A stretch of 32,000 nucleotides of DNA from Staphylothermus marinus F1 (GCF_000015945.1 NC_009033.1:1470001-1502000); one strand, 5' to 3'. Numbered from the stretch's first letter, positions 1 to 29,759 are shown. Numbers and translations: made by a program. Notes: a model not told the origin generated them from the letters alone.

Positions 1-617
1 CAGACACTAATCTATTCTATCAAGGACTACATATGGTATTGCTTAAAGCAAGTATAAGACAAGGTTCTCCCTGGAGCACTCTACGGAATATCTCGGTATA
101 TATTCCAAGATGTGCTGAAACAGAAATTAACGGTAAAGTTGCAGAGACTAATCCTGATGCAGGGGGATTACAGCGTGTATCATATATTATGGCTTTACTA
201 GCTAATAGAGCATTGCTCGAGACAAAATATTATTATGACGCTAAAACATTATCGGCAACGGCACAGCCTTGCGAAGCATCAATGGCTGTTGAAGCACCGA
301 ATCTCCCGGAACACAGAATATTATTGATAACAGCTGATCACAAAGCATTTACTGCTTGGCAAACACTAAATGTTTGTAGAGGAAAAGTTGCATGCGCATA
401 TATTGGACACAGCGATAAACCATTAGATACAGATACAATATATGGTAGATTCTATGCCAGCATAGCCTCCAGCATATTATTATATGTATCCAGCTTATTC
501 CTCCCAGTAACAGTTAAGGGATCAAGTGGCGAAGCTAGATTAATCGTTAAAAACTTAAAAGGCTCATCAGCACCAATAGTTAGCGTTCATAGAATAAGGA
601 ATGACGAGAAATTATAA
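1..617 (+). CDS. Hypothetical protein, C-terminal part (frame is open to the left window edge; first ATG at 33)
   Basis: ORF track 33..617. The same frame has no stop back to position 3, so the gene probably starts upstream of the window. No family recognised. Confidence 0.35.
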   Translation, partial: DTNLFYQGLHMVLLKASIRQGSPWSTLRNISVYIPRCAETEINGKVAETNPDAGGLQRVSYIMALLANRALLETKYYYDAKTLSATAQPCEASMAVEAPNLPEHRILLITADHKAFTAWQTLNVCRGKVACAYIGHSDKPLDTDTIYGRFYASIASSILLYVSSLFLPVTVKGSSGEARLIVKNLKGSSAPIVSVHRIRNDEKL

Positions 618-6797: not shown

Positions 6798-7182
6798 AAT
6801 ATCAGCAACTTTTTATGTAATCTTCCTATCCACATCTATTCATTATACATTATTAACCATTAGTTGTCTAATATTTTAAACCAGTTCTCCACTTAAAAAT
6901 TATCTGTCTATAGAAGAATATGTTAACCATTATAAAATAAGTATATTTCCTAGAATATATTAATAAACAAATTATTACTCTATTGTTTTTGATGGATTTT
7001 TCTTATTGAAGAAGACTATAATATGTTAAGGTTAGCGTTAATATTTATTGAAGAGATAAATTTGTTGTACATCTTGGATTATTTCTAGGAAGAACATGTT
7101 GCTCCTGCATTATTTAGCATGAACAACCACATAACAACTAAAATATTATTAAACAATCATAGTATTCATGGTTTCCAAAAAG

Positions 7183-7352
7183 AAAAACACCTGAACAAAT
7201 GAACAGTGGTTGCCCGTGCTTTATTTTTTGGTTGTTTTGGAAACTTTGGATGCTTGCACGGGCTTCCCCCTCTTGGGTTGGGGCTTCGCTCCTTCATCGT
7301 GGGGGTTATCGGGTCTCCACCAAGACCACTTTGAGCCCTTCATCCGCATTTC
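7183..7352 (-). ncRNA. Candidate structured ncRNA, family copy 1
   Basis: G+C island in A+T-rich DNA. An 8-bp stem (7212-7219 with 7256-7263) closes a 36-nt A/U loop. GGGCTC/GAG(A)CCC forms a hairpin. AGTGGT (sense) is complementary to the tail ACCACT (7205-7210 with 7325-7330). Two T5 runs on the sense strand lie at 7177-7187. The ends are approximate. Confidence 0.55.
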
Positions 7353-7382
7353 CCAAATCATTAACCATTATATTAGTGAGGG

Positions 7383-7390
7383 TTTATAAA
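7383..7390 (-). promoter_or_regulatory. TATA-box-like TTTATAAA preceded (sense) by GGGTTCGC, upstream of ncRNA copy 1
   Basis: The same GGGTTCGC-TTTATAAA-CCC module is found in all three units. A second A/T box (AATATAAT, sense) lies about 20 nt from the core start, so the exact TSS is uncertain. Confidence 0.45.
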
Positions 7391-7479
7391 GCGAACCCAA
7401 TAATTAAAACAATCATGGTTTCCACAATTTTCCAAAACAACTATAATATCCAAATAAGCGAATAGTCTTCAATGGGTGA

Positions 7480-7878
7480 ATGGGTATGAGTATACGAGTT
7501 GGTTTGAGGAGAGAAATGGATTATGTTGTATCTGAAAATGATGCACCAAAGTTCTTGTTGGATAAGGGGGTTGGTGTTCTTAGTACTCCTAGAATGATCG
7601 CGTTGATGGAGGGGAATTCGAAGAGGTTGCTTGATCAGTTTTTAGGAGAAGAATATACTAGCGTAGGCATACATGTGGATGTGTATCATAAGGCACCAGC
7701 ACCTGTTGGTTCAAGAGTTAAGTTTGTATCGGAAATTATAGAGGTTAAGAAGAATAAAGTTTTGTTTAAAGTAAAATGTGTGCTTAACGACATAGTTGTG
7801 GGAGAAGGTATTCATGAAAGAGCAATAGTTTCTTGGAACAAGTTTATAGAACATGTTAAAAAGATTATGGGAAAATAA
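7480..7878 (+). CDS. Hotdog-fold thioesterase (FlK-like / COG5496 type)
   Basis: SVGIHVDVYHKAPAPVGSRVKFVSEIIEVKKNKVLFKVKC...GEGIHERAIV fits the family pattern. Confidence 0.65.
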   Translation: MGMSIRVGLRREMDYVVSENDAPKFLLDKGVGVLSTPRMIALMEGNSKRLLDQFLGEEYTSVGIHVDVYHKAPAPVGSRVKFVSEIIEVKKNKVLFKVKCVLNDIVVGEGIHERAIVSWNKFIEHVKKIMGK

Positions 7879-7992
7879 AACTCTATTGTTTTTTATAACA
7901 GTTTTCATAATTCTTATAGAATAATTAATATATCTGAAACACAAAAATAAAATATCTATGATAGTATTAAAATTCGCAAATTTAGTAACGAT

Positions 7993-8388
7993 ATGAACGG
8001 GCGAGGAAAAATGAGATCGCTTGTTGACTTATTAATTTTTCTTGGATTACCTGCAGTAGCAGCTTCTGCATTAGCGGTTTTAATAAAGGAATCCATACCA
8101 TTATCACTTAGCGAGCTTTCTGAAAAAACAGGTTATGCTAAGAGTCATCTCTGCACGCATTTAAAGCATTTAGTATTTAATGGTTTAGTTAAAGTTAAGA
8201 AAGTGGGGAGGAAGAAGTTGTTTTATACTGATAGAGACACATTAACCAGACTGATCATTAAGCATCTCAACGAGCTTAAATCTAGAATAGATTTCGTTGT
8301 AAACGAGACAAATAATAGTGAATTCTCAAATATTTTGCTTTCATATTCACGTAAACTTCACGAGGTAATATATCTTGGAAGAATTTAG
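7993..8388 (+). CDS. TrmB/ArsR-like winged-helix transcriptional regulator
   Basis: LIFLGLPAVAASALAVLIKESIPLSLSELSEKTGYAKSHLCTHLKHLVFNGLVKV follows the TrmB-type wHTH pattern. It is the first gene of a tightly spaced three-gene operon. Confidence 0.55.
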   Translation: MNGRGKMRSLVDLLIFLGLPAVAASALAVLIKESIPLSLSELSEKTGYAKSHLCTHLKHLVFNGLVKVKKVGRKKLFYTDRDTLTRLIIKHLNELKSRIDFVVNETNNSEFSNILLSYSRKLHEVIYLGRI

Positions 8389-8391
8389 ATT

Positions 8392-8799
8392 TTGTGTTTA
8401 GAGGTGGCTGTCTTGGAGTATCTTAAAGTTTTAGAAGAAGACAATATCCATGTCGTCGTAGGTGTGGGAGGCGAGGAAAACTCTACTATTGATAGAAGCG
8501 GGGTTATCTATAGTGAGTTGGTGAGGCTTGCAAACAAGTATAATAAGCGTAGATTCACACTACATGTTGTCTCAGATAAGCCGAGGCCATTATATATAGA
8601 GAATATTAGGAGTCTCATACAGAATAATATTGTATATTCTCTTACAATTAGGTATCATAACTTGAACTTCGAAGAGTTGGAGAAGATAATTAATGATCTC
8701 CTAGCTCGGAACAAACTTGTATACGGGGTTGTTGAGGAAGAATTTGCTGAACTAATTAGTTTTCTCAGAAATAAAGGTGTAGAAGTCGTAAAGATCTAG
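8392..8799 (+). CDS. Hypothetical protein (middle gene of the regulator / radical-SAM operon)
   Basis: 135-aa ORF lying 3 nt after the regulator gene and 7 nt before the radical SAM gene. No family recognised. Confidence 0.4.
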   Translation: MCLEVAVLEYLKVLEEDNIHVVVGVGGEENSTIDRSGVIYSELVRLANKYNKRRFTLHVVSDKPRPLYIENIRSLIQNNIVYSLTIRYHNLNFEELEKIINDLLARNKLVYGVVEEEFAELISFLRNKGVEVVKI

Positions 8800-8806
8800 G
8801 TTTGAG

Positions 8807-10339
8807 GTGATACGTATGAAGGGGTTTGAAATAGTTTTAACAACAGATAGAACAATGATGAGTAATCATCATGGAAAAGAATTCTTGGGCTTCATAGCTA
8901 CTGGTCCAGCTATAGGTATGCCTGAGAAACTGTGGATGTGGATTGCAGCTCCAAAAATTGATGTTGACGAGTATGGTAGGCCTAGAGAAGCACCATATGG
9001 TATGAGGAAGGTTGAGGCAAAACTTGTTGATGCAGGATATAATGCTGCAATAATTGATCCTGATCACCTGCATAGATATCTTGACACTATGAAGGTTCTA
9101 ATGATTGGTCACCACGACTACTTCGCCTACGGGCCTCCAAGCAGTGAATGGTGGAGTTTAACAGGGAAGGAACCAGTTAATAGATTGAGTTTTAAGAGAT
9201 TCATGAATAGCCCGGTTATTAGGAAAGCTAAGGAGAAAGGTGTAAAAATAATAGCTGGTGGCCCAGCTGCTTGGCAGTGGTTATGGGAGCTGGAGCTTTG
9301 GAGGAAATGGGGTGTTGACACAGTTATTGATGGAGAAGTAGAGAAGGTAATTGTTGATCTCGTTGATAAAGCATTGAATAATGAGCCTTTACCTGACTAC
9401 ATATATGTTGGTCCAAGAGATGCTCCAAGCATTGAGGAGATACCAATAATTAAAGCTCCAAGTATTAATGGGCTCATAGAGATTATGCGTGGATGCCCGC
9501 GCGGCTGCAAATTCTGTAGCGTAACCCTCAGACCCCTCAGATATATGCCTCTGGAAAGAATTAGGGAAGAGATAAGAATTAATCTTCGCGGAGGAACTAA
9601 AGGTGTTATTCTTCATAGTGAAGACGTACTATTATATGGTGCTGACGGTGTTAAGCCAAGGCCTGAACCACTAATTAATCTCCACAAGACAGTGTTTGAA
9701 GAATTAGGTGAGAAAAAAGAGTTTGCATGGTCTCATGCAAGCTTAGCAGCCATCAAATATGCTGAAGACGAGTATGGGCTTGTATCTAAGCTTATGAATG
9801 AATATATATTATCTGATCATAGACGTTTCCTAGGCGTAGAAGTTGGTATAGAAACAGGTAGTCCAAGGCTTGCAAAAATAATAATGCCTGCTAAAGCAGC
9901 ACCTTATCCAGCGGAGAAATGGCCTGATATAGTTGAGGATGCGTTTAGGATTATGCATGAAAACAAGATCATACCTGCTGCAACCCTTATACTTGGACTT
10001 CCACAGGAGACGCCTGATGATGTAGTTAAAACAGCAGAGTTAATTGATAGGTTAAAACCTTATAGAAGCGTAATAATACCAATGTTCTTTGTTCCAATGG
10101 GTGCTTTAAAGAAGAACACGTGGTTTATGAGAGATCATATTACAAGAGAACATATAGACGTGATGCTTAAAACATTTGAGCACACAGTATATTGGGCAGA
10201 AGATATTATGAACAAGTTCTATTTGAAGGAAACATATCTATACCCTGTAAGACTTGGTTTGAAAATGTTCTTGAGATACGCTAAACACAAAATTAGGAAG
10301 ATAATGAAAGAAGGACTTGAACAATACATTAAAGCCTAG
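8807..10339 (+). CDS. Radical SAM protein with an N-terminal B12-binding-like domain (COG1032 type)
   Basis: CxxxCxxC cluster motif in MRGCPRGCKFCSV. The N-terminal roughly 200 aa resemble the cobalamin-binding-like domain of class B radical SAM enzymes. Confidence 0.8.
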   Translation: MIRMKGFEIVLTTDRTMMSNHHGKEFLGFIATGPAIGMPEKLWMWIAAPKIDVDEYGRPREAPYGMRKVEAKLVDAGYNAAIIDPDHLHRYLDTMKVLMIGHHDYFAYGPPSSEWWSLTGKEPVNRLSFKRFMNSPVIRKAKEKGVKIIAGGPAAWQWLWELELWRKWGVDTVIDGEVEKVIVDLVDKALNNEPLPDYIYVGPRDAPSIEEIPIIKAPSINGLIEIMRGCPRGCKFCSVTLRPLRYMPLERIREEIRINLRGGTKGVILHSEDVLLYGADGVKPRPEPLINLHKTVFEELGEKKEFAWSHASLAAIKYAEDEYGLVSKLMNEYILSDHRRFLGVEVGIETGSPRLAKIIMPAKAAPYPAEKWPDIVEDAFRIMHENKIIPAATLILGLPQETPDDVVKTAELIDRLKPYRSVIIPMFFVPMGALKKNTWFMRDHITREHIDVMLKTFEHTVYWAEDIMNKFYLKETYLYPVRLGLKMFLRYAKHKIRKIMKEGLEQYIKA

Positions 10340-10453
10340 AAATATTTTTATAAACAACGAAGAGATAATTTCATATTTCTCCAATACATTATCTAGATTA
10401 AAACAAGGAGAATCAATAGAGATATGAATAATAAGCACGAGTAAGGGGTATAG

Positions 10454-11956
10454 ATGATGAGTATATTTTACATAACAACACCAATATATTATCCAAACGC
10501 ACCACCCCATATAGGGCATGCTTACACAACGGTTTTCGCCGATGTCTTGGCGAGATATCATAGGCTTATAGGGGATGAAGTATTCTTTATGACTGGTAAT
10601 GATGAGCATGGATTAAAGCTTCAGAGAGCTGCGGAGAAGAAAGGTGTTCATCCTAAACAATTTGTTGATGAAATGGCTGATGTTTATAAGAAGTATTGGG
10701 AATTGCTTGATATAAGTTATGACTACTTTATACGTACAACGGATGATTACCATGAAAAAGTTGTTAAGACAGCTATTCAGAAACTATATGATAAGGGATT
10801 AGTATATAAGGCAAGCTATGCTGGATGGTATTGTGTAGACTGCGAAAAATTCTATAGTCCAGGAGAATACATTGAAATCAATGGGAAACCACATTGTCCT
10901 ATACATAAGAAGCCTCTTGAATGGCTCGAGGAGGAAACATATTATTTCAAACTAAGCGAATTCGAGGATTTCATAATAGATGTCTTGAAAAACAAGGATA
11001 TAGTATATCCTCGTAGCTATGCATTAGAAGTACTCGGCAAAGTTGAAAAGGAGGGATTAAGGGATGTATCAATTGCTCGCCCCAAAGAACGCGTTTGGTG
11101 GGGTATAGAGGTACCCTTTGATAAGAACTATACTGTCTATGTATGGTTCGACGCGCTCCTAAACTATATTAGTGGTATAGGCTACTTAGAAGATATGGAT
11201 CGTTTCAACAAGTATTGGCCGAATGTACACCATGTTATCGGAAAAGATATCTTATGGTTCCATACAGTAGTATGGTTTTCGATACTTAAAGCACTAGATA
11301 TTGAGTTGCCAAAGAAACTGCTGGTTCATGCATTCTTGATTAATAGGGGGTTGAAAATAGGTAAGAGTGCAGGCAATGTTATAGCTATAGAAGATCTAAT
11401 TGATAGATATCAGGATAGTGATGGTGTTAGATATATTTTAATGAGGGTCTTTAACATGGATAAAGATGTTGATGTATCAACAGAGTTGTTCGACTCAATA
11501 TATAATAGTGAACTAGCCGACACACTTGGCAATCTTGTCCGCAGAATTGGTGTATTAGCTAAGAAGAAACTTGGCGGAATAGTTTATAAGCGAGAAGTAG
11601 ATAAAGAGCTCTCAACAAGTATTGTGGAAACACTGAATAAATACAATGAATACATGGAAGCCTATGATGTATCAAGAGCTATCCAGGTAGTAATGGATTT
11701 GTTAAGGAAAGCGAATGCATATGTGAATTTGACAAGGCCATGGGAGAAAATGGATCCAGGAAAAGAACTATATAGCCTACTAGAAACAATTAGAGCATCA
11801 ACTACAATGCTATATCCAATAATACCTAAAGCCGCTAGTAAAGTATCCAAAGCATTTGGATACCGCATAGGTAATCCATCAGAATATGTTATAGGAGAAA
11901 TCGAAAGATATAATATAGTTGATGCACCCATACTTTTTAGGAAAATAAAACAGTAA
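10454..11956 (+). CDS. metG: Methionyl-tRNA synthetase
   Basis: HIGH motif PPHIGHAYT, zinc knuckle CVDCEKF...CPIHKKP, KMSKS-like LKIGKSAGN, and an anticodon-binding helical domain. A TTTTTATAAA box lies upstream at about 10346. Confidence 0.95.
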   Translation: MMSIFYITTPIYYPNAPPHIGHAYTTVFADVLARYHRLIGDEVFFMTGNDEHGLKLQRAAEKKGVHPKQFVDEMADVYKKYWELLDISYDYFIRTTDDYHEKVVKTAIQKLYDKGLVYKASYAGWYCVDCEKFYSPGEYIEINGKPHCPIHKKPLEWLEEETYYFKLSEFEDFIIDVLKNKDIVYPRSYALEVLGKVEKEGLRDVSIARPKERVWWGIEVPFDKNYTVYVWFDALLNYISGIGYLEDMDRFNKYWPNVHHVIGKDILWFHTVVWFSILKALDIELPKKLLVHAFLINRGLKIGKSAGNVIAIEDLIDRYQDSDGVRYILMRVFNMDKDVDVSTELFDSIYNSELADTLGNLVRRIGVLAKKKLGGIVYKREVDKELSTSIVETLNKYNEYMEAYDVSRAIQVVMDLLRKANAYVNLTRPWEKMDPGKELYSLLETIRASTTMLYPIIPKAASKVSKAFGYRIGNPSEYVIGEIERYNIVDAPILFRKIKQ

Positions 11957-11957
11957 T

Positions 11958-12323
11958 CTATTTCTTCTCTAATCCAAAGATCTCCCCATATTTTCTCCCA
12001 ATAAGTGCTTCTAATAATTTCTCGTTCTTCTTAATATAAGATAATAACATGCCTAAAGCATCAGATAAAGAACTATAATCTTTCACAACCAAGTAATGAG
12101 CCATTTTACGTATAGTACCCATTACTTTCTCATCGCTCATCAATGCTTAAACCCCTCTCCTACCTCTTTTACTCAATAAATAGTTACTTATAGCTGGTTG
12201 GCTAACGCCGAGCATTTTTGATGCTTCAACCTGAGTATACTCATATTCCTCAACTAGGATCTTAGCTAGAATAGCTCTAATTGCTGGAAGAATATATTTG
12301 GAGACTATTCGCTTATCTAGATA
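11958..12323 (-). pseudogene. XRE/COG2522-like HTH regulator, 5'-truncated and split by an in-frame TAA
   Basis: The minus frame 12323->12150 reads YLDKRIVSKYILPAIRAILAKILVEEYEYTQVEASKMLGVSQPAISNYLLSKRGRRGV. There is no ATG/GTG/TTG before the HTH, and a TAG sits at 12324-12326. A TAA at 12147-12149 is followed in the same frame by the 61-aa ORF 11958..12143. Confidence 0.5.
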
Positions 12324-12387
12324 CTATAGTTATTTTGGAAGCTATGGAAATAATGGTTGTTTTGGAGGCTTTGGAGCTTGGGTTCAA

Positions 12388-12395
12388 TTTATAAA
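12388..12395 (+). promoter_or_regulatory. TATA-box-like TTTATAAA upstream of ncRNA copy 2
   Basis: GGGTTCAA-TTTATAAA-CCCC module, with the G+C-rich core starting about 35 nt downstream. A second A/T box (CAATATAATGG) lies in between. Confidence 0.45.
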
Positions 12396-12427
12396 CCCCC
12401 TACAATATAATGGTTAATGGTTTAAAA

Positions 12428-12590
12428 CTGCAGATGAAGGGCTCAAAGTGGTCTACGTGGAGCCCCGAGAGCCCCCTCCGTGAAGGAATGAAGCCCCAAC
12501 CCAAGAGGGGGAAGCCCGTGCAGATATCCAAAGTTTCCAAAACAACCAAAAGATAAAGCACGGGCAACCACAGCTTCACACCATGTTTTC
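12428..12590 (+). ncRNA. Candidate structured ncRNA, family copy 2
   Basis: GGGCTC 12439-12444 pairs with GAGCCC 12460-12465. CCCCCTC 12472-12478 pairs with GAGGGGG 12505-12511. GCCCGTGC 12514-12521 pairs with GCACGGGC 12558-12565 and closes a 36-nt A/U loop. GTGGT 12448-12452 is complementary to ACCAC 12567-12571. A T4 run lies at 12586-12589. The ends are approximate. Confidence 0.55.
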
Positions 12591-12723
12591 AAAGTCAATA
12601 GAAAACCCCTTTTATCCAACAACTAATCTATACTTGTTCTGCTTATAACTCTTCTATTTCTATATTATTTAAATTGTTTGTGGGAATAAATATATATTTA
12701 GAGAATCATGTTCTATTTGGGGA

Positions 12724-24316: not shown

Positions 24317-24380
24317 AGACTATTCGCTTATTTAAATACTAGGCTTATTTTTAGGGAATTATGAAAAACATAATTATTTG
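24317..24380 (+). repeat. Solo left-end module of the dispersed unit
   Basis: AGACTATTCGCTTATTTAAATACTAGGCTTATTTTTAGGGAATTATGAAAAACATAATTATTTG aligns with the first 60-65 nt of copies 1-3. No G+C-rich core follows it. Confidence 0.7.
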
Positions 24381-24550
24381 ATATGATTAGTTGTTGAATT
24401 CACTTTCAGAAACGAGCTCTTTCATTTCTCATCGTCTTCTCTATGTATTCTCTGCGTCGCAGTACTCTAATATACAATTATTATTACTCTAATTATTTAT
24501 GGTGAAGATTGATTATTAATTATGTAAATAGTACTTGTTGGAGAAGAGCA

Positions 24551-26949: not shown

Positions 26950-27125
26950 AAGTTTAGGCGTTTCCCCACCCTTATTATTTCTGAGTATTTTTGATTATTT
27001 TCCATGGGTGGGGTTAGCTCTTGGTGTGGGATCACCTGCTTCACCCACACCTCATGGGGCTCGGTCGAGCCCAACGCCATGGGGCTCCCATTTGTGGATA
27101 AGTATTTTAAGCCAATATTTATTGC
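26950..27125 (-). ncRNA. Divergent member of the candidate ncRNA family (copy 4)
   Basis: The architecture matches copies 1-3 but with different helix sequences. CCCCACCC 26964-26971 pairs with GGGTGGGG 27006-27013 around a 34-nt A/T loop. GGTGTGGG 27023-27030 pairs with CCCACACC 27044-27051. GGGCTC 27057-27062 pairs with GAGCCC 27067-27072. GGCGTT 26957-26962 is complementary to AACGCC 27073-27078. A/T boxes lie at 27100-27122 on the sense-upstream side. The strand is assigned by analogy only. Confidence 0.45.
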
Positions 27126-29258: not shown

Positions 29259-29426
29259 TAGTGAATAGGGGGCTCAATCCATATAATACCCCTAATTAAT
29301 TTCTGCACAAACCCGTATACCCTAATAATGGAAACAGGTAATAGTTAAGTGGGCAATTACTACTAGTAAGACTATTTGCTTATTTGGATACTATAATTGT
29401 TTAGAGGAGCTTATTGTTGGGTTCGC

Positions 29427-29434
29427 TTTATAAA
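29427..29434 (+). promoter_or_regulatory. TATA-box-like TTTATAAA upstream of ncRNA copy 3
   Basis: GGGTTCGC-TTTATAAA-CC module. The G+C-rich core (GCAGATGAAGGGC) starts 23 nt after the box, a typical archaeal TATA-to-TSS spacing. Confidence 0.5.
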
Positions 29435-29455
29435 CCATTTATAATTGTTTGTAAA

Positions 29456-29624
29456 ATGCAGATGAAGGGCTCATGGTGGTTTGTGTGGAGCCCCAATAGC
29501 CCCTTCCGTGAAGATGATGAAAACCCAACACAAGAGGGGGAAGCCCGTGCAAGTATCAAAAATAACCAAAATAACCATAGTTTCTAAAAGATAATGCACG
29601 GGCAACCACTGCCTGTTTGTTTTG
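29456..29624 (+). ncRNA. Candidate structured ncRNA, family copy 3
   Basis: GCCCGTGC 29543-29550 pairs with GCACGGGC 29596-29603 around a 45-nt A/U loop. GTGGTT 29476-29481 is complementary to AACCAC 29604-29609. CCCCTTC pairs with GAGGGGG using a U-G wobble that works only in this orientation. T-runs lie at 29616-29623. Confidence 0.55.
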
Positions 29625-29759
29625 GAAACTATGAAAACCATGGTTGTTTTATGAGTTCTTAAACAAAACTCCTACCATGTTATATTATTATTTATTAGTA
29701 TATGGTCTTGGCTTAGATTTTTATGAAAATATTGTTTATTTAACAGAAATTATTCTTTC

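What the first reader, a model, noticed from the sequence alone, without database searches (positions are those of the whole stretch)
7150..7468. Dispersed ~290-nt unit with its own TATA box and a G+C-rich structured core: candidate new ncRNA / RNA-bearing mobile element family (copy 1 of 3+1)
Read on the minus strand, this stretch aligns end to end with 12301-12590 and 29369-29653 (both plus). All three share the same order of parts:
- Left-end module AGACTATTCGCTTATTTGGATAYTATAGTT
- TTTTGGAAA-type motifs
- GGGTTCGC-TTTATAAA (BRE/TATA-like)
- A sharply bounded G+C-rich core starting GCRGATGAAGGGCTCA
- An 8-bp stem GCCCGTGC/GCACGGGC closing a 36-45 nt A/U-rich loop
- The tail AACCAC, followed by T-runs

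Copies 1 and 2 differ by 14 substitutions and no indel over about 140 aligned nt (hand count). Ten of those substitutions sit in one 43-nt patch.

The neighbouring genes differ at each site (thioesterase, truncated HTH gene, VapBC modules). So the unit itself is what has been copied.

In an A+T-rich hyperthermophile-type genome, an isolated G+C island behind its own promoter is the classical signature of a structured RNA (the GC-bias principle of Klein, Misulovin and Eddy 2002). I do not recognise it as tRNA, rRNA, SRP RNA, RNase P RNA, or a C/D or H/ACA sRNA. GA-rich tandem segments (CGUGAAGGAAUGAAG, CGAUGAAGGAGCGAAG, CGUGAAGAUGAUGAAAAC) are reminiscent of K-turn/K-loop (L7Ae) sites, but I could not verify that by hand.
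Basis: partly seen in the sequence, partly recalled or inferred. Interest (0 to 1): 0.85.

Follow-up and report, generated by a model that had tools for sequence, protein, structure and literature searches.

The report
Guide-RNA-carrying miniature IS607 transposon
The repeated ~265-nt unit is a protein-less miniature copy (MITE) of an IS607-family transposon of Staphylothermus marinus that keeps the transposon's left-end promoter and the guide-RNA (omega RNA) scaffold of its TnpB nuclease; the repeat was already reported as a MITE in 2009, and its RNA content is a known kind of RNA, not a new class.

Summary

It is not a new RNA family. The "left-end module" is the conserved left end (LE) of an IS607-family transposon. 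The G+C-rich core is the last ~40 codons of tnpB plus the transposon right end (RE), which is the position of the TnpB guide (omega/reRNA) scaffold. Sequence diverges right after AACCAC, where the guide starts.

Full-length relatives carry, between the same ends, an IS607 serine transposase plus TnpB (2.04 kb) or TnpB alone (1.5-1.7 kb). About 20 further short elements (237-266 bp) have the same layout in other archaeal genomes.

Three helices and a pseudoknot are supported by compensatory changes. The A/U-rich hairpin loop is an array of 9-nt repeats mirrored in the LE, probably TnpA binding sites.

A related strain lacks copies 1 and 2. Its empty site shows a 266-bp insertion at an AC dinucleotide with no duplication.

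The window is from S. marinus F1. Its 2009 genome paper already lists 14 such "MITEs" and five IS607 elements. Only the omega-RNA reading is new. Expression and use by TnpB in trans are inferred, not shown.

The parts
7206..7467 (-). MITE copy 1 (262 bp): LE + promoter + omega-RNA scaffold + RE. This is the finding's copy.
   Evidence: Bounds come from LE GACTATT (G at 7467) and RE ...AACCAC (C at 7206). No tnpA or tnpB inside.
7438..7467 (-). Left-end terminal module GACTATTCGCTTATTTGGATATTATAGTTG
   Evidence: The same module starts 2.04-kb TnpA+TnpB elements, 1.5-kb TnpB-only elements and 20 short elements in other genomes.
7406..7440 (-). LE subterminal TTTTGGAAA-type repeats, putative TnpA (serine transposase) binding sites
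   Evidence: Inverse complement of the RE hairpin loop: 22 nt at 91% complementary in copy 2. 9-nt periodicity as described for IS607-family ends (PMC6188088).
7383..7398 (-). BRE/TATA-like promoter (GGGTTCGC TTTATAAA) facing the RNA
   Evidence: Direct reading. Full-length elements carry a TATA box at +49..57 of the LE driving tnpA (ATG at +88), and the class-A short elements keep that LE and TATA layout. The window copies' TATA lies further in (about +70..85 of the LE) and may equally derive from the tnpB promoter. Activity not tested.
7206..7344 (-). omega-RNA (reRNA) scaffold = remnant of the last ~40 codons of tnpB plus the RE
   Evidence: Covariance model R1 scores 114 bits, E=1e-35. In the tnpB frame it reads MKGSKWSWWRPDNPHDEGAKPQPKRGKPVQASKVSKTTKK*, 26/38 identical to the C-terminus of S. 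marinus TnpB P0009.
7312..7338 (-). Helix P1 (GGGCUC/GAGaCC, one mismatch in this copy). Its loop holds GUGGU (7325-7329).
   Evidence: 8/8 P1 pairs show compensatory changes on alignment A3; 6/8 on A2.
7266..7305 (-). Helix P2 (CCCCCaC/GAGGGGG) enclosing the GA-rich segment
   Evidence: 4/5 modelled pairs have compensatory change. Copy 1 has an A.A mismatch here.
7212..7263 (-). Helix P3 (GCCCGUGC/GCACGGGC) with a 36-nt A/U-rich loop made of ~9-nt repeats; the tnpB stop codon lies in the loop
   Evidence: 6/8 pairs compensatory once non-ascertained relatives are included. Loop repeats.
7206..7210 (-). Tail ACCAC, 3' strand of the pseudoknot with GUGGU (7325-7329). Its last two bases, AC, are the recombination core.
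   Evidence: Pseudoknot variants are complementary in four lineages: GUGGU/ACCAC, GGCGUU/AACGCC, GGGUU/AACCC, CCGU/ACGG. AC core from the empty site.
7186..7205 (-). Guide position (flanking DNA read into the RNA): UGUUCAUUUGUUCAGGUG...
   Evidence: In 65 related loci, similarity ends exactly after AACCAC. Guide length is assumed from known TnpB systems.
7131..7207 (-). Degenerate older left end abutting the RE through the shared AC
   Evidence: Local alignment to the LE of copy 1 starting at ACT(A/G)TTC. The same arrangement follows copy 3.
12303..12571 (+). MITE copy 2 (TATA 12388-12395; RNA scaffold 12433-12571). It splits a Cro/HTH-like gene.
   Evidence: R1 scores 122 bits. 31/41 aa identical to the TnpB P0021 tail. 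Absent from the syntenic contig L085, where removing 266 bp restores a gapless alignment.
29370..29609 (+). MITE copy 3 (TATA 29427-29434; RNA scaffold 29461-29609), followed by a degenerate LE to ~29665
   Evidence: R1 scores 109 bits. The coding frame is broken but the helices are kept.
24318..24400 (+). Solo left end (no RNA module)
26958..27092 (-). Diverged fourth omega-RNA-like module behind a decayed tnpB 3' end (a different lineage)
   Evidence: R1 scores 33 bits, E=3e-9 to 3e-11. DRDVIGAINIGLKYL lies upstream.

Best explanation
Each copy is a non-autonomous, protein-less derivative (MITE) of an IS607-family insertion sequence resident in Staphylothermus marinus F1.

An internal deletion removed tnpB (and tnpA, where present). 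It fused the left end and a TATA promoter to the last ~140 nt of the element. Those 140 nt are the omega-RNA (reRNA) scaffold of the TnpB RNA-guided nuclease and also contain the right end.

Shown:
- Homology of both ends and of the core to full-length elements.
- Conserved RNA helices and a pseudoknot next to the guide position.
- Insertion at an AC dinucleotide without target duplication.
- Presence/absence polymorphism between related strains.
- TnpB genes of the matching type in the same genome.

Inferred:
- The promoter transcribes scaffold plus ~16-20 nt of right-flank DNA.
- TnpB made by full-length copies loads this RNA in trans.
- If a serine TnpA excises the MITE, TnpB cuts the resealed empty site (a TAM ending in GAC, followed by the guide match). 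Homologous repair then restores the MITE.
- The 9-nt repeat arrays in the LE and in the RE hairpin loop are the TnpA binding sites used for mobilisation in trans.
For: Relatives and element types.
- 65 archaeal loci share the RE hairpin plus AACCAC, and similarity stops right after AACCAC.
- In many loci a 410-465-aa ORF runs into the RNA. It hits Cas12f1-like_TNB and OrfB_IS605, guided_TnpB NF040570 at 111.9 bits (cut-off 100) and TIGR01766.
- The 2.04-kb elements also encode a 206-aa protein scoring 203 bits on NF033518 'IS607 family transposase' (cut-off 110).
- The same LE starts the 2.04-kb, 1.5-kb and 237-266-bp elements.
- Full-length elements carry a TATA box in the LE that drives tnpA, and the class-A short elements keep that LE and TATA layout. 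The window copies also place a TATA box between the LE and the RNA.

Link to the host genome.
- L074 is a full-length element with the window-type scaffold.
- The window core, read in the tnpB frame, is 31/41 identical to the C-terminus of S. marinus TnpB P0021, with the stop codon in the same place.
- The window is S. marinus F1.

RNA structure.
- 18 of 21 modelled pairs have compensatory changes.
- 91% of cells are paired, against 29-56% when partners are slid.
- Four complementary pseudoknot variants exist.

Ends and mobility.
- The LE repeats and the RE loop are complementary: 22 nt at 91%.
- The syntenic contig L085 lacks copies 1 and 2. Removing 266 bp and leaving one AC aligns without a gap.
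- The LE junction is GAC in 32-34 of 34 elements.

Literature.
- S. marinus has five IS607 elements and 14 MITEs of about 260 nt (PMC2678158).
- PATEs 'often encode omega RNAs' acted on in trans (10.1101/2023.03.14.532601).
- TnpB promotes IS607 retention (PMC10690162).
- IS607 ends carry 9-bp subterminal repeats bound by TnpA (PMC6188088).
Against: - There are no expression data. The promoter is a consensus match only.
- The origin of the window copies' TATA is not settled: it lies further from the LE than the tnpA TATA of full-length elements and may derive from the tnpB promoter.
- The only tnpA in S. marinus F1 is reported truncated (Smar_0846), so mobilisation may no longer occur in this strain.
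- Copy 1, the finding's copy, has one mismatch each in P1 and P2. Its fold is no better than shuffles (z = -0.54), so it may be decaying.
- The copies differ by ~10% in the core, so none is recent.
- In copies 1 and 3 the 'guide' is an old degenerate LE, not unique flank.
- The exchange dinucleotide is AC, not the GG described for IS607 itself.
- No Rfam family matches. The omega-RNA identity therefore rests on position, homology and structure, not on a curated model.
- The A3 covariation counts come from an alignment fitted to the model.
Confidence: 0.85

Rival explanations
1. Same origin (an IS607-derived MITE), but the RNA part is inert baggage. The scaffold is kept only because it overlaps the right end needed for transposition. 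It is neither transcribed nor used by TnpB.
For: - Copy 1 has helix-breaking substitutions and an unremarkable folding energy.
- tnpA is a pseudogene in this genome.
- There is no expression evidence.
- In copies 1 and 3 the guide position holds an old LE.
Against: - IS607 TnpA sites lie within ~60 bp of the ends. Yet short elements in two different scaffold classes all retain the full 135-175-nt scaffold fused to a TATA box at a fixed distance.
- W3 has lost the reading frame but keeps the helices.
- P1 and P2, which lie outside the TnpA-site array, show compensatory changes.
Confidence: 0.2
2. An independent cellular structured ncRNA gene family, for example an L7Ae/K-turn RNP RNA, that merely happens to be repeated.
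For: - A G+C island behind a TATA box.
- GA-rich segments.
- No Rfam hit.
Against: - The core is homologous to the tnpB 3' end in DNA and in the reading frame.
- The flanking modules are the IS607 LE and RE.
- Copies are insertions absent from a related strain.
- The K-turn-like arrangement is not conserved in relatives (my reading of the sequences).
Confidence: 0.02
3. A recombinase-guiding 'bridge-like' RNA whose hairpin loop pairs with the complementary TTTTGGAAA motifs of the left end to direct recombination.
For: The P3 loop is 83-91% complementary to LE subterminal sequence.
Against: - The associated transposase is an IS607 serine recombinase, not IS110/IS1111.
- Repeats with 9-nt periodicity at both ends match protein binding sites described for IS607-family TnpA.
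- The loop is found inverted in 3 of 71 copies. That destroys RNA-DNA complementarity but keeps double-stranded binding sites.
Confidence: 0.02
4. Domesticated stand-alone guide RNA genes that direct a TnpB-derived regulator or nuclease to fixed host or viral targets.
For: Own promoter, no adjacent nuclease gene, several copies.
Against: - Guides are simply whatever flanks each insertion.
- Copies are polymorphic insertions, one of them inside a gene.
- The class-B TnpB keeps the RuvC D/E/D residues (my reading of the sequences).
Confidence: 0.03

Closest known systems
S. marinus F1 'MITEs' of Anderson et al. 2009 (BMC Genomics 10:145; PMC2678158)
   Same: The same genome, the same ~260-nt repeat (14 copies reported), and the same link to the region upstream of the four one-ORF IS607 'transposase' (tnpB) genes.
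   Different: The paper predates omega RNA. It does not describe the match to the tnpB 3' end and right end, the RNA structure, the promoter, or the AC insertion site.
TnpB omega RNA / reRNA of IS200/IS605 and IS607 elements (Karvelis 2021, PMC8612924; Altae-Tran 2021; Zedaveinyte 2023, PMC10690162)
   Same: - It overlaps the 3' end of tnpB and runs to the right end.
- The scaffold ends at the transposon boundary and is followed by flank-derived guide.
- A pseudoknot sits next to the guide.
- TnpB is of the Cas12f-like/OrfB type.
   Different: - No curated Rfam model matches.
- Here the RNA sits in a protein-less element behind the transposon's left-end promoter region.
- The last hairpin loop doubles as a repeat array mirrored in the LE.
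PATEs of IS200/IS605 (Meers et al. 2023 preprint, 10.1101/2023.03.14.532601)
   Same: Minimal elements without genes that keep the LE and RE and 'often encode omega RNAs' needing TnpB in trans.
   Different: PATEs have palindromic ends used by a Y1 tyrosine TnpA and move as single-stranded DNA. These elements have IS607-type ends and a serine TnpA.
IS607 family (IS607, IS1535, ISC1926; Chen et al. 2018, PMC6188088)
   Same: - A MerR-HTH serine transposase plus TnpB.
- No long terminal inverted repeats and no target duplication.
- 9-bp subterminal repeats 20-60 bp from the ends.
- Exchange over a 2-bp core.
   Different: The core here is AC (target GAC), not GG.

Membership tests
IS607-family transposon (non-autonomous derivative) | Full-length members encode a serine-recombinase TnpA with an N-terminal MerR-like HTH | tested here: met
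   The 206-aa ORF in the 2.04-kb elements with the same LE/RE scores 203 bits on NF033518 (cut-off 110). It also hits Resolvase and HTH_17.
IS607-family transposon (non-autonomous derivative) | Accessory tnpB gene ending at the right end | tested here: met
   PF07282, TIGR01766 and NF040570 hits. The ORF ends 18-25 nt before AACCAC.
IS607-family transposon (non-autonomous derivative) | Insertion without target-site duplication, by exchange over a 2-bp core present at both junctions | tested here: met
   At the empty site in L085, removing 266 bp and leaving one AC gives a gapless alignment. GAC is at the LE junction in 32-34 of 34 elements and ..CCAC at the RE. The core is AC rather than GG.
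IS607-family transposon (non-autonomous derivative) | Multiple short subterminal repeats at both ends (TnpA sites) | tested here: met
   ~9-nt periodic repeats in the RE loop. The LE and RE arrays are inverse complements. Protein binding was not tested.
IS607-family transposon (non-autonomous derivative) | The window copies themselves lack tnpA and tnpB | tested here: met
   tblastn finds only the ~40-codon tnpB tail.
TnpB omega RNA (reRNA) | Encoded at the 3' end of tnpB/RE, with the scaffold ending at the transposon boundary and the guide coming from flanking DNA | tested here: met
TnpB omega RNA (reRNA) | Conserved secondary structure with a pseudoknot adjoining the guide | tested here: met
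   18/21 pairs compensatory. Four complementary pseudoknot variants.
TnpB omega RNA (reRNA) | Transcribed, bound by TnpB, and directs TAM-dependent DNA cleavage | not testable with these tools
   Needs RNA-seq, RIP and cleavage assays.
TnpB omega RNA (reRNA) | Match to a curated RNA family model | tested here: not met
   No Rfam 15 hit at gathering threshold on the window; only noise at E<=10 on copy 2. No model for this lineage appears to exist.
Classical MITE | Short, non-coding, multi-copy, with terminal inverted repeats and a target-site duplication | tested here: inconclusive
   Short, non-coding and multi-copy: yes. The inverted repeats are subterminal rather than terminal, and there is no duplication. 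So it is a 'MITE' in the loose sense used in PMC2678158.
PATE (IS200/IS605-derived) | Palindromic ends recognised by a Y1 tyrosine TnpA | tested here: not met
   The associated transposase is a serine recombinase.
K-turn / L7Ae-binding RNA | C-stem, 3-nt bulge, tandem sheared G.A/A.G pairs, conserved across homologues | tested here: inconclusive
   In the window lineage, P2 is followed by NNU-GA on one strand but AA (not GA) on the other. The L013-type relatives lack the arrangement (my reading of the sequences). No binding test is possible.
tRNA, rRNA, SRP, RNase P, C/D and H/ACA sRNA | Match to the family model | tested here: not met
   Rfam: 0 hits. ARAGORN: 0.

The most novel reading that the evidence does not exclude
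These miniature elements may be self-contained guide-RNA expression cassettes: the transposon promoter driving the TnpB omega RNA, with no protein gene. As such they would parasitise both enzymes of full-length IS607 copies, using TnpA to move and TnpB to be re-copied into emptied sites. One stretch of DNA would serve at once as RNA hairpin, protein tail and transposase binding array. Their recurrence in two scaffold classes, and in genomes assigned to several archaeal phyla, would make them a natural intermediate between transposon-bound guides and free-standing guide genes such as CRISPR arrays or TldR guides.
Probability: 0.4. Interest if true: 0.5.

Novelty: new member of a known kind. Interest (0 to 1): 0.3.

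Why it matters
It removes a false lead: this is not a new class of archaeal RNA.

It also gives a precise functional annotation to a repeat that the 2009 genome paper could only call a MITE. The repeat turns out to be an omega-RNA module of a hyperthermophilic TnpB, with defined ends, a promoter, a supported secondary structure and pseudoknot, and an AC insertion core.

The annotation is of practical use in three ways:
- It helps annotate archaeal genomes, where these units break assemblies and split genes.
- It helps define scaffold and TAM candidates for thermostable TnpB editors.
- It opens the question of whether guide-only elements exploit TnpB in trans in IS607, as proposed for the PATEs of IS605.

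Tried and rejected
- Rfam at gathering threshold on the whole window, and at E<=10 on copy 2: nothing meaningful.
- ARAGORN: no tRNA or tmRNA.
- Homologue search with the reconstructed split HTH protein, meant to find an empty site: no candidates. The empty site was later found through a MetRS cluster member.
- Viral contig scan for the RE hairpin: 0 hits, so there is no evidence for a viral vector.
- Look-ups of S. marinus TnpB P0009 and P0021 to read their own right ends: not on record.
- TnpA homologue search: the best 120 hits do not include S. marinus. Whether tnpA is present there rests on the 2009 paper alone.
- Empty site of copy 1: the intergenic region is too diverged from L085 to align. 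Only the absence of the RNA module could be shown.
- Most metagenome hits to the 19-mer were chance matches in G+C-rich bacteria, as were 4 of the 69 genome hits.
- Bridge-RNA, domesticated-guide and K-turn readings were considered and set aside; see the rival explanations.

Full report

Yes. The minus strand of 7130-7480 aligns along its length with 12290-12640 and 29355-29700.
- The core motifs GATGAAGGGCTCA and AGAGGGGGAAGCCCGTGC each occur exactly three times, with 0.01 matches expected for the latter.
- The left-end module occurs four times, with none expected. The fourth is a solo end at 24317-24338.
- BRE/TATA, the 8-bp stem with loops of 36, 36 and 45 nt, and the AACCAC tail are all present.
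- G+C peaks at 0.48 against 0.22-0.30 around it.

**2. What are the ends and the core?**

I scanned one genome per prokaryotic species for the hairpin plus tail. This gave 69 loci, 65 of them archaeal and mostly hydrothermal MAGs. In all of them, similarity stops immediately after AACCAC.

In many loci a 410-465-aa ORF runs into the conserved RNA region and ends 18-25 nt before AACCAC.
- The ORF is a TnpB: Cas12f1-like_TNB and OrfB_IS605; guided_TnpB at 111.9 bits against a cut-off of 100; TIGR01766.
- The 2.04-kb elements also encode a 206-aa MerR-HTH serine recombinase. It scores 203 bits on NCBIfam 'IS607 family transposase', cut-off 110.

So the module is the left end (LE) of an IS607-family transposon. 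The hairpin plus AACCAC is its right end (RE). The G+C-rich core sits where TnpB omega RNAs (reRNAs) are encoded. Twenty loci hold short elements with the same LE-TATA-RNA-RE layout as the window copies.

**3. How does this link to the host genome?**

Window proteins are identical to Staphylothermus marinus F1 entries ABN70600 and ABN70613.

A metagenome scan with a window-specific 19-mer found a full-length, 1695-bp TnpB-only element with the window-type scaffold (L074). Its TnpB has 471 relatives. Three of them are annotated in S. marinus F1 (P0009, P0021, P0048).

In the tnpB frame, copy 2 reads MKGSKWSTWSPESPLREGMKPQPKRGKPVQISKVSKTTKR*. This is 31/41 identical to the C-terminus of P0021, with the stop codon in the same place. 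Copy 3 has lost the frame. The window holds no tnpA or tnpB apart from these tails.

**4. Where does the promoter come from?**

In the 2.04-kb elements the LE carries TTTTGG-type repeats, then a TATA box at +49..57, and the tnpA ATG at +88. The class-A short elements keep the same LE and TATA, now placed about 26-30 nt upstream of the RNA.

In the TnpB-only lineage a TATA box lies about 32 nt upstream of the tnpB ATG. The window copies have their TATA 27-39 nt upstream of GATGAAGGG, at about +70..85 of the LE. Whether it descends from the LE tnpA promoter or from the tnpB promoter is not settled. Either way, the "own promoter" is inherited from the transposon. Its activity is untested.

**5. 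What is the RNA structure?**
- On a MAFFT alignment of 16 scaffolds of the window type, helix P1 has compensatory changes in 6 of 8 pairs. 87% of cells pair, against 38-47% when partners are slid.
- A covariance model (R1) finds the three copies at 109-122 bits.
- It also finds a fourth, diverged module at 26958-27092(-), at 33 bits, behind a decayed tnpB 3' end.
- Relatives fetched through their TnpB proteins were not selected on the hairpin sequence. With them added, the model-fitted alignment shows compensatory change in 18 of 21 pairs. 91% of cells pair, against 29-56% slid. This alignment leans towards the model.
- The P1 loop and the tail just 5' of the guide are complementary in four different versions: GUGGU/ACCAC, GGCGUU/AACGCC, GGGUU/AACCC and CCGU/ACGG. 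This supports a pseudoknot next to the guide, as known for TnpB/Cas12 guide scaffolds (my own knowledge of the ISDra2 structures).
- Copy 1 carries one mismatch each in P1 and P2 and folds no better than shuffles. Copies 2 and 3 fold with z of -2.5 and -3.0.

**6. What is the A/U-rich loop?**

It consists of 3-4 repeats with 9-nt spacing. It is the inverse complement of the LE subterminal repeats, 22 nt at 91% complementary. IS607-family TnpA binds 9-bp subterminal repeats 20-60 bp from the ends (PMC6188088).

The loop is therefore best read as the RE transposase-site array. It is also translated as the TnpB tail in full-length copies. In 3 of 71 copies the loop is inverted between the stem arms.

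**7. Is there evidence of mobility, and where does the element insert?**

A syntenic contig from a related strain (L085) lacks copies 1 and 2. It has an intact 126-aa Cro/HTH-like gene where copy 2 splits that gene in the window.

Removing exactly 266 bp and leaving one AC restores a gapless alignment across the site. So the element inserts at AC without a target duplication, consistent with serine-recombinase exchange over a 2-bp core.

The LE junction reads GAC in 32-34 of 34 elements, with a purine before it in 32 of 34. The TAM therefore probably ends in GAC; this is an inference.

Downstream of copies 1 and 3, the RE abuts a degenerate LE through the shared AC.

**8. What does the literature say?**
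- The 2009 genome paper reports five IS607 elements in S. marinus. Four are one-ORF elements, and one is a two-ORF element with a truncated first ORF.
- It also reports 14 copies of a ~260-nt repeat "likely to be MITEs", similar to the region upstream of the transposase ORFs (PMC2678158). So the repeat itself is already known.
- Omega RNA, TnpB function in IS605 and IS607, and gene-less PATEs that "often encode omega RNAs" are published.
- What my searches did not find described is that these archaeal IS607 MITEs consist of a left end and promoter joined to a complete omega-RNA scaffold. I cannot exclude that it is described somewhere.

**9. How does it most likely work, and how sure am I?**
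- Identity as an IS607-derived MITE carrying the TnpB omega-RNA scaffold: about 0.9 or higher.
- That the RNA is made and used by TnpB in trans to restore the MITE after excision: about 0.5. This is inferred from the architecture and from published IS605/IS607 work.
- The main doubts are the absence of expression data, a truncated tnpA in this strain, and signs of decay in copy 1.

**10. Verdict**

The feature is real and well explained. It is a new member of a known kind, not a new RNA class. Interest is modest.

Noticed in passing
window 26958-27092 (-), with 27093-~27330 upstream: A fourth, diverged omega-RNA-like module with a different hairpin stem (CCCCACCC/GGGUGGGG) and tail (AACGCC). 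It follows a frameshifted tnpB 3' remnant (DRDVIGAINIGLKYL). This is a decayed element of another lineage.
   Followed up: partly
window 24318-~24400 (+): A solo left end (GACTATTCGCTTATTTAAATA plus TTTT-rich repeats) without an RNA module, just upstream of a PaREP1-family gene.
   Followed up: partly
window 7131-7207 (-) and 29608-~29665 (+): A degenerate left end directly abuts the right end of copies 1 and 3 through the shared AC. The MITE appears to have inserted at the LE junction of an older copy. As a result, the 'guide' of these two copies is old LE sequence.
   Followed up: partly
window 11958-12302 and 12572-~12610 (-): Copy 2 splits a small Cro/HTH_3-like gene that is intact (126 aa) in the related contig L085:6510-6890. 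The window gene also carries an additional premature stop.
   Followed up: yes
L016, L018, L036 (RE hairpin loops): The loop between the 8-bp stem arms is present as its reverse complement in 3 of 71 copies. This is an inversion between the inverted-repeat arms. Cause and consequence are unknown.
   Followed up: partly
L074:2902-3037 (-); also called in L084:1277-1423, L086:475-606, L090:478-624: TnpB-only elements of this lineage carry a conserved antisense ORF of about 43-48 aa between the LE and tnpB (MSYVYNFEAKIIKYGGGRYIIYPPKEYQEKLK...). It has no significant Pfam hit. The window MITEs lack it.
   Followed up: partly
L013, L020, L074 and P0009/P0021/P0048 (TnpB proteins): This TnpB lineage keeps the RuvC D/E/D motifs but has no CxxC...CxxC zinc-finger cysteines. 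The TnpB of the 2.04-kb elements has them.
   Followed up: no
L001-L069: Nearly identical LE and RE occur in MAGs assigned to Thermoproteota, Asgard (Baldrarchaeum, Njordarchaeota), Methanobacteriota, Archaeoglobaceae, Woesearchaeota and Nitrososphaeria. The Baldrarchaeum copies are G+C-shifted. Whether this is horizontal transfer or binning error is unresolved. No viral contig carries the element.
   Followed up: partly
L070 (SRR4046664 contig, = window ~7397-12328): A short-read assembly of this region breaks inside copies 1 and 2. These repeats fragment assemblies.
   Followed up: no
L090:1811-1958 and 2153-2281: Two omega-RNA modules of different lineages lie ~200 nt apart on one strand. 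The second has no full tnpB in front of it, so it may be a neighbouring MITE or a tandem insertion.
   Followed up: no
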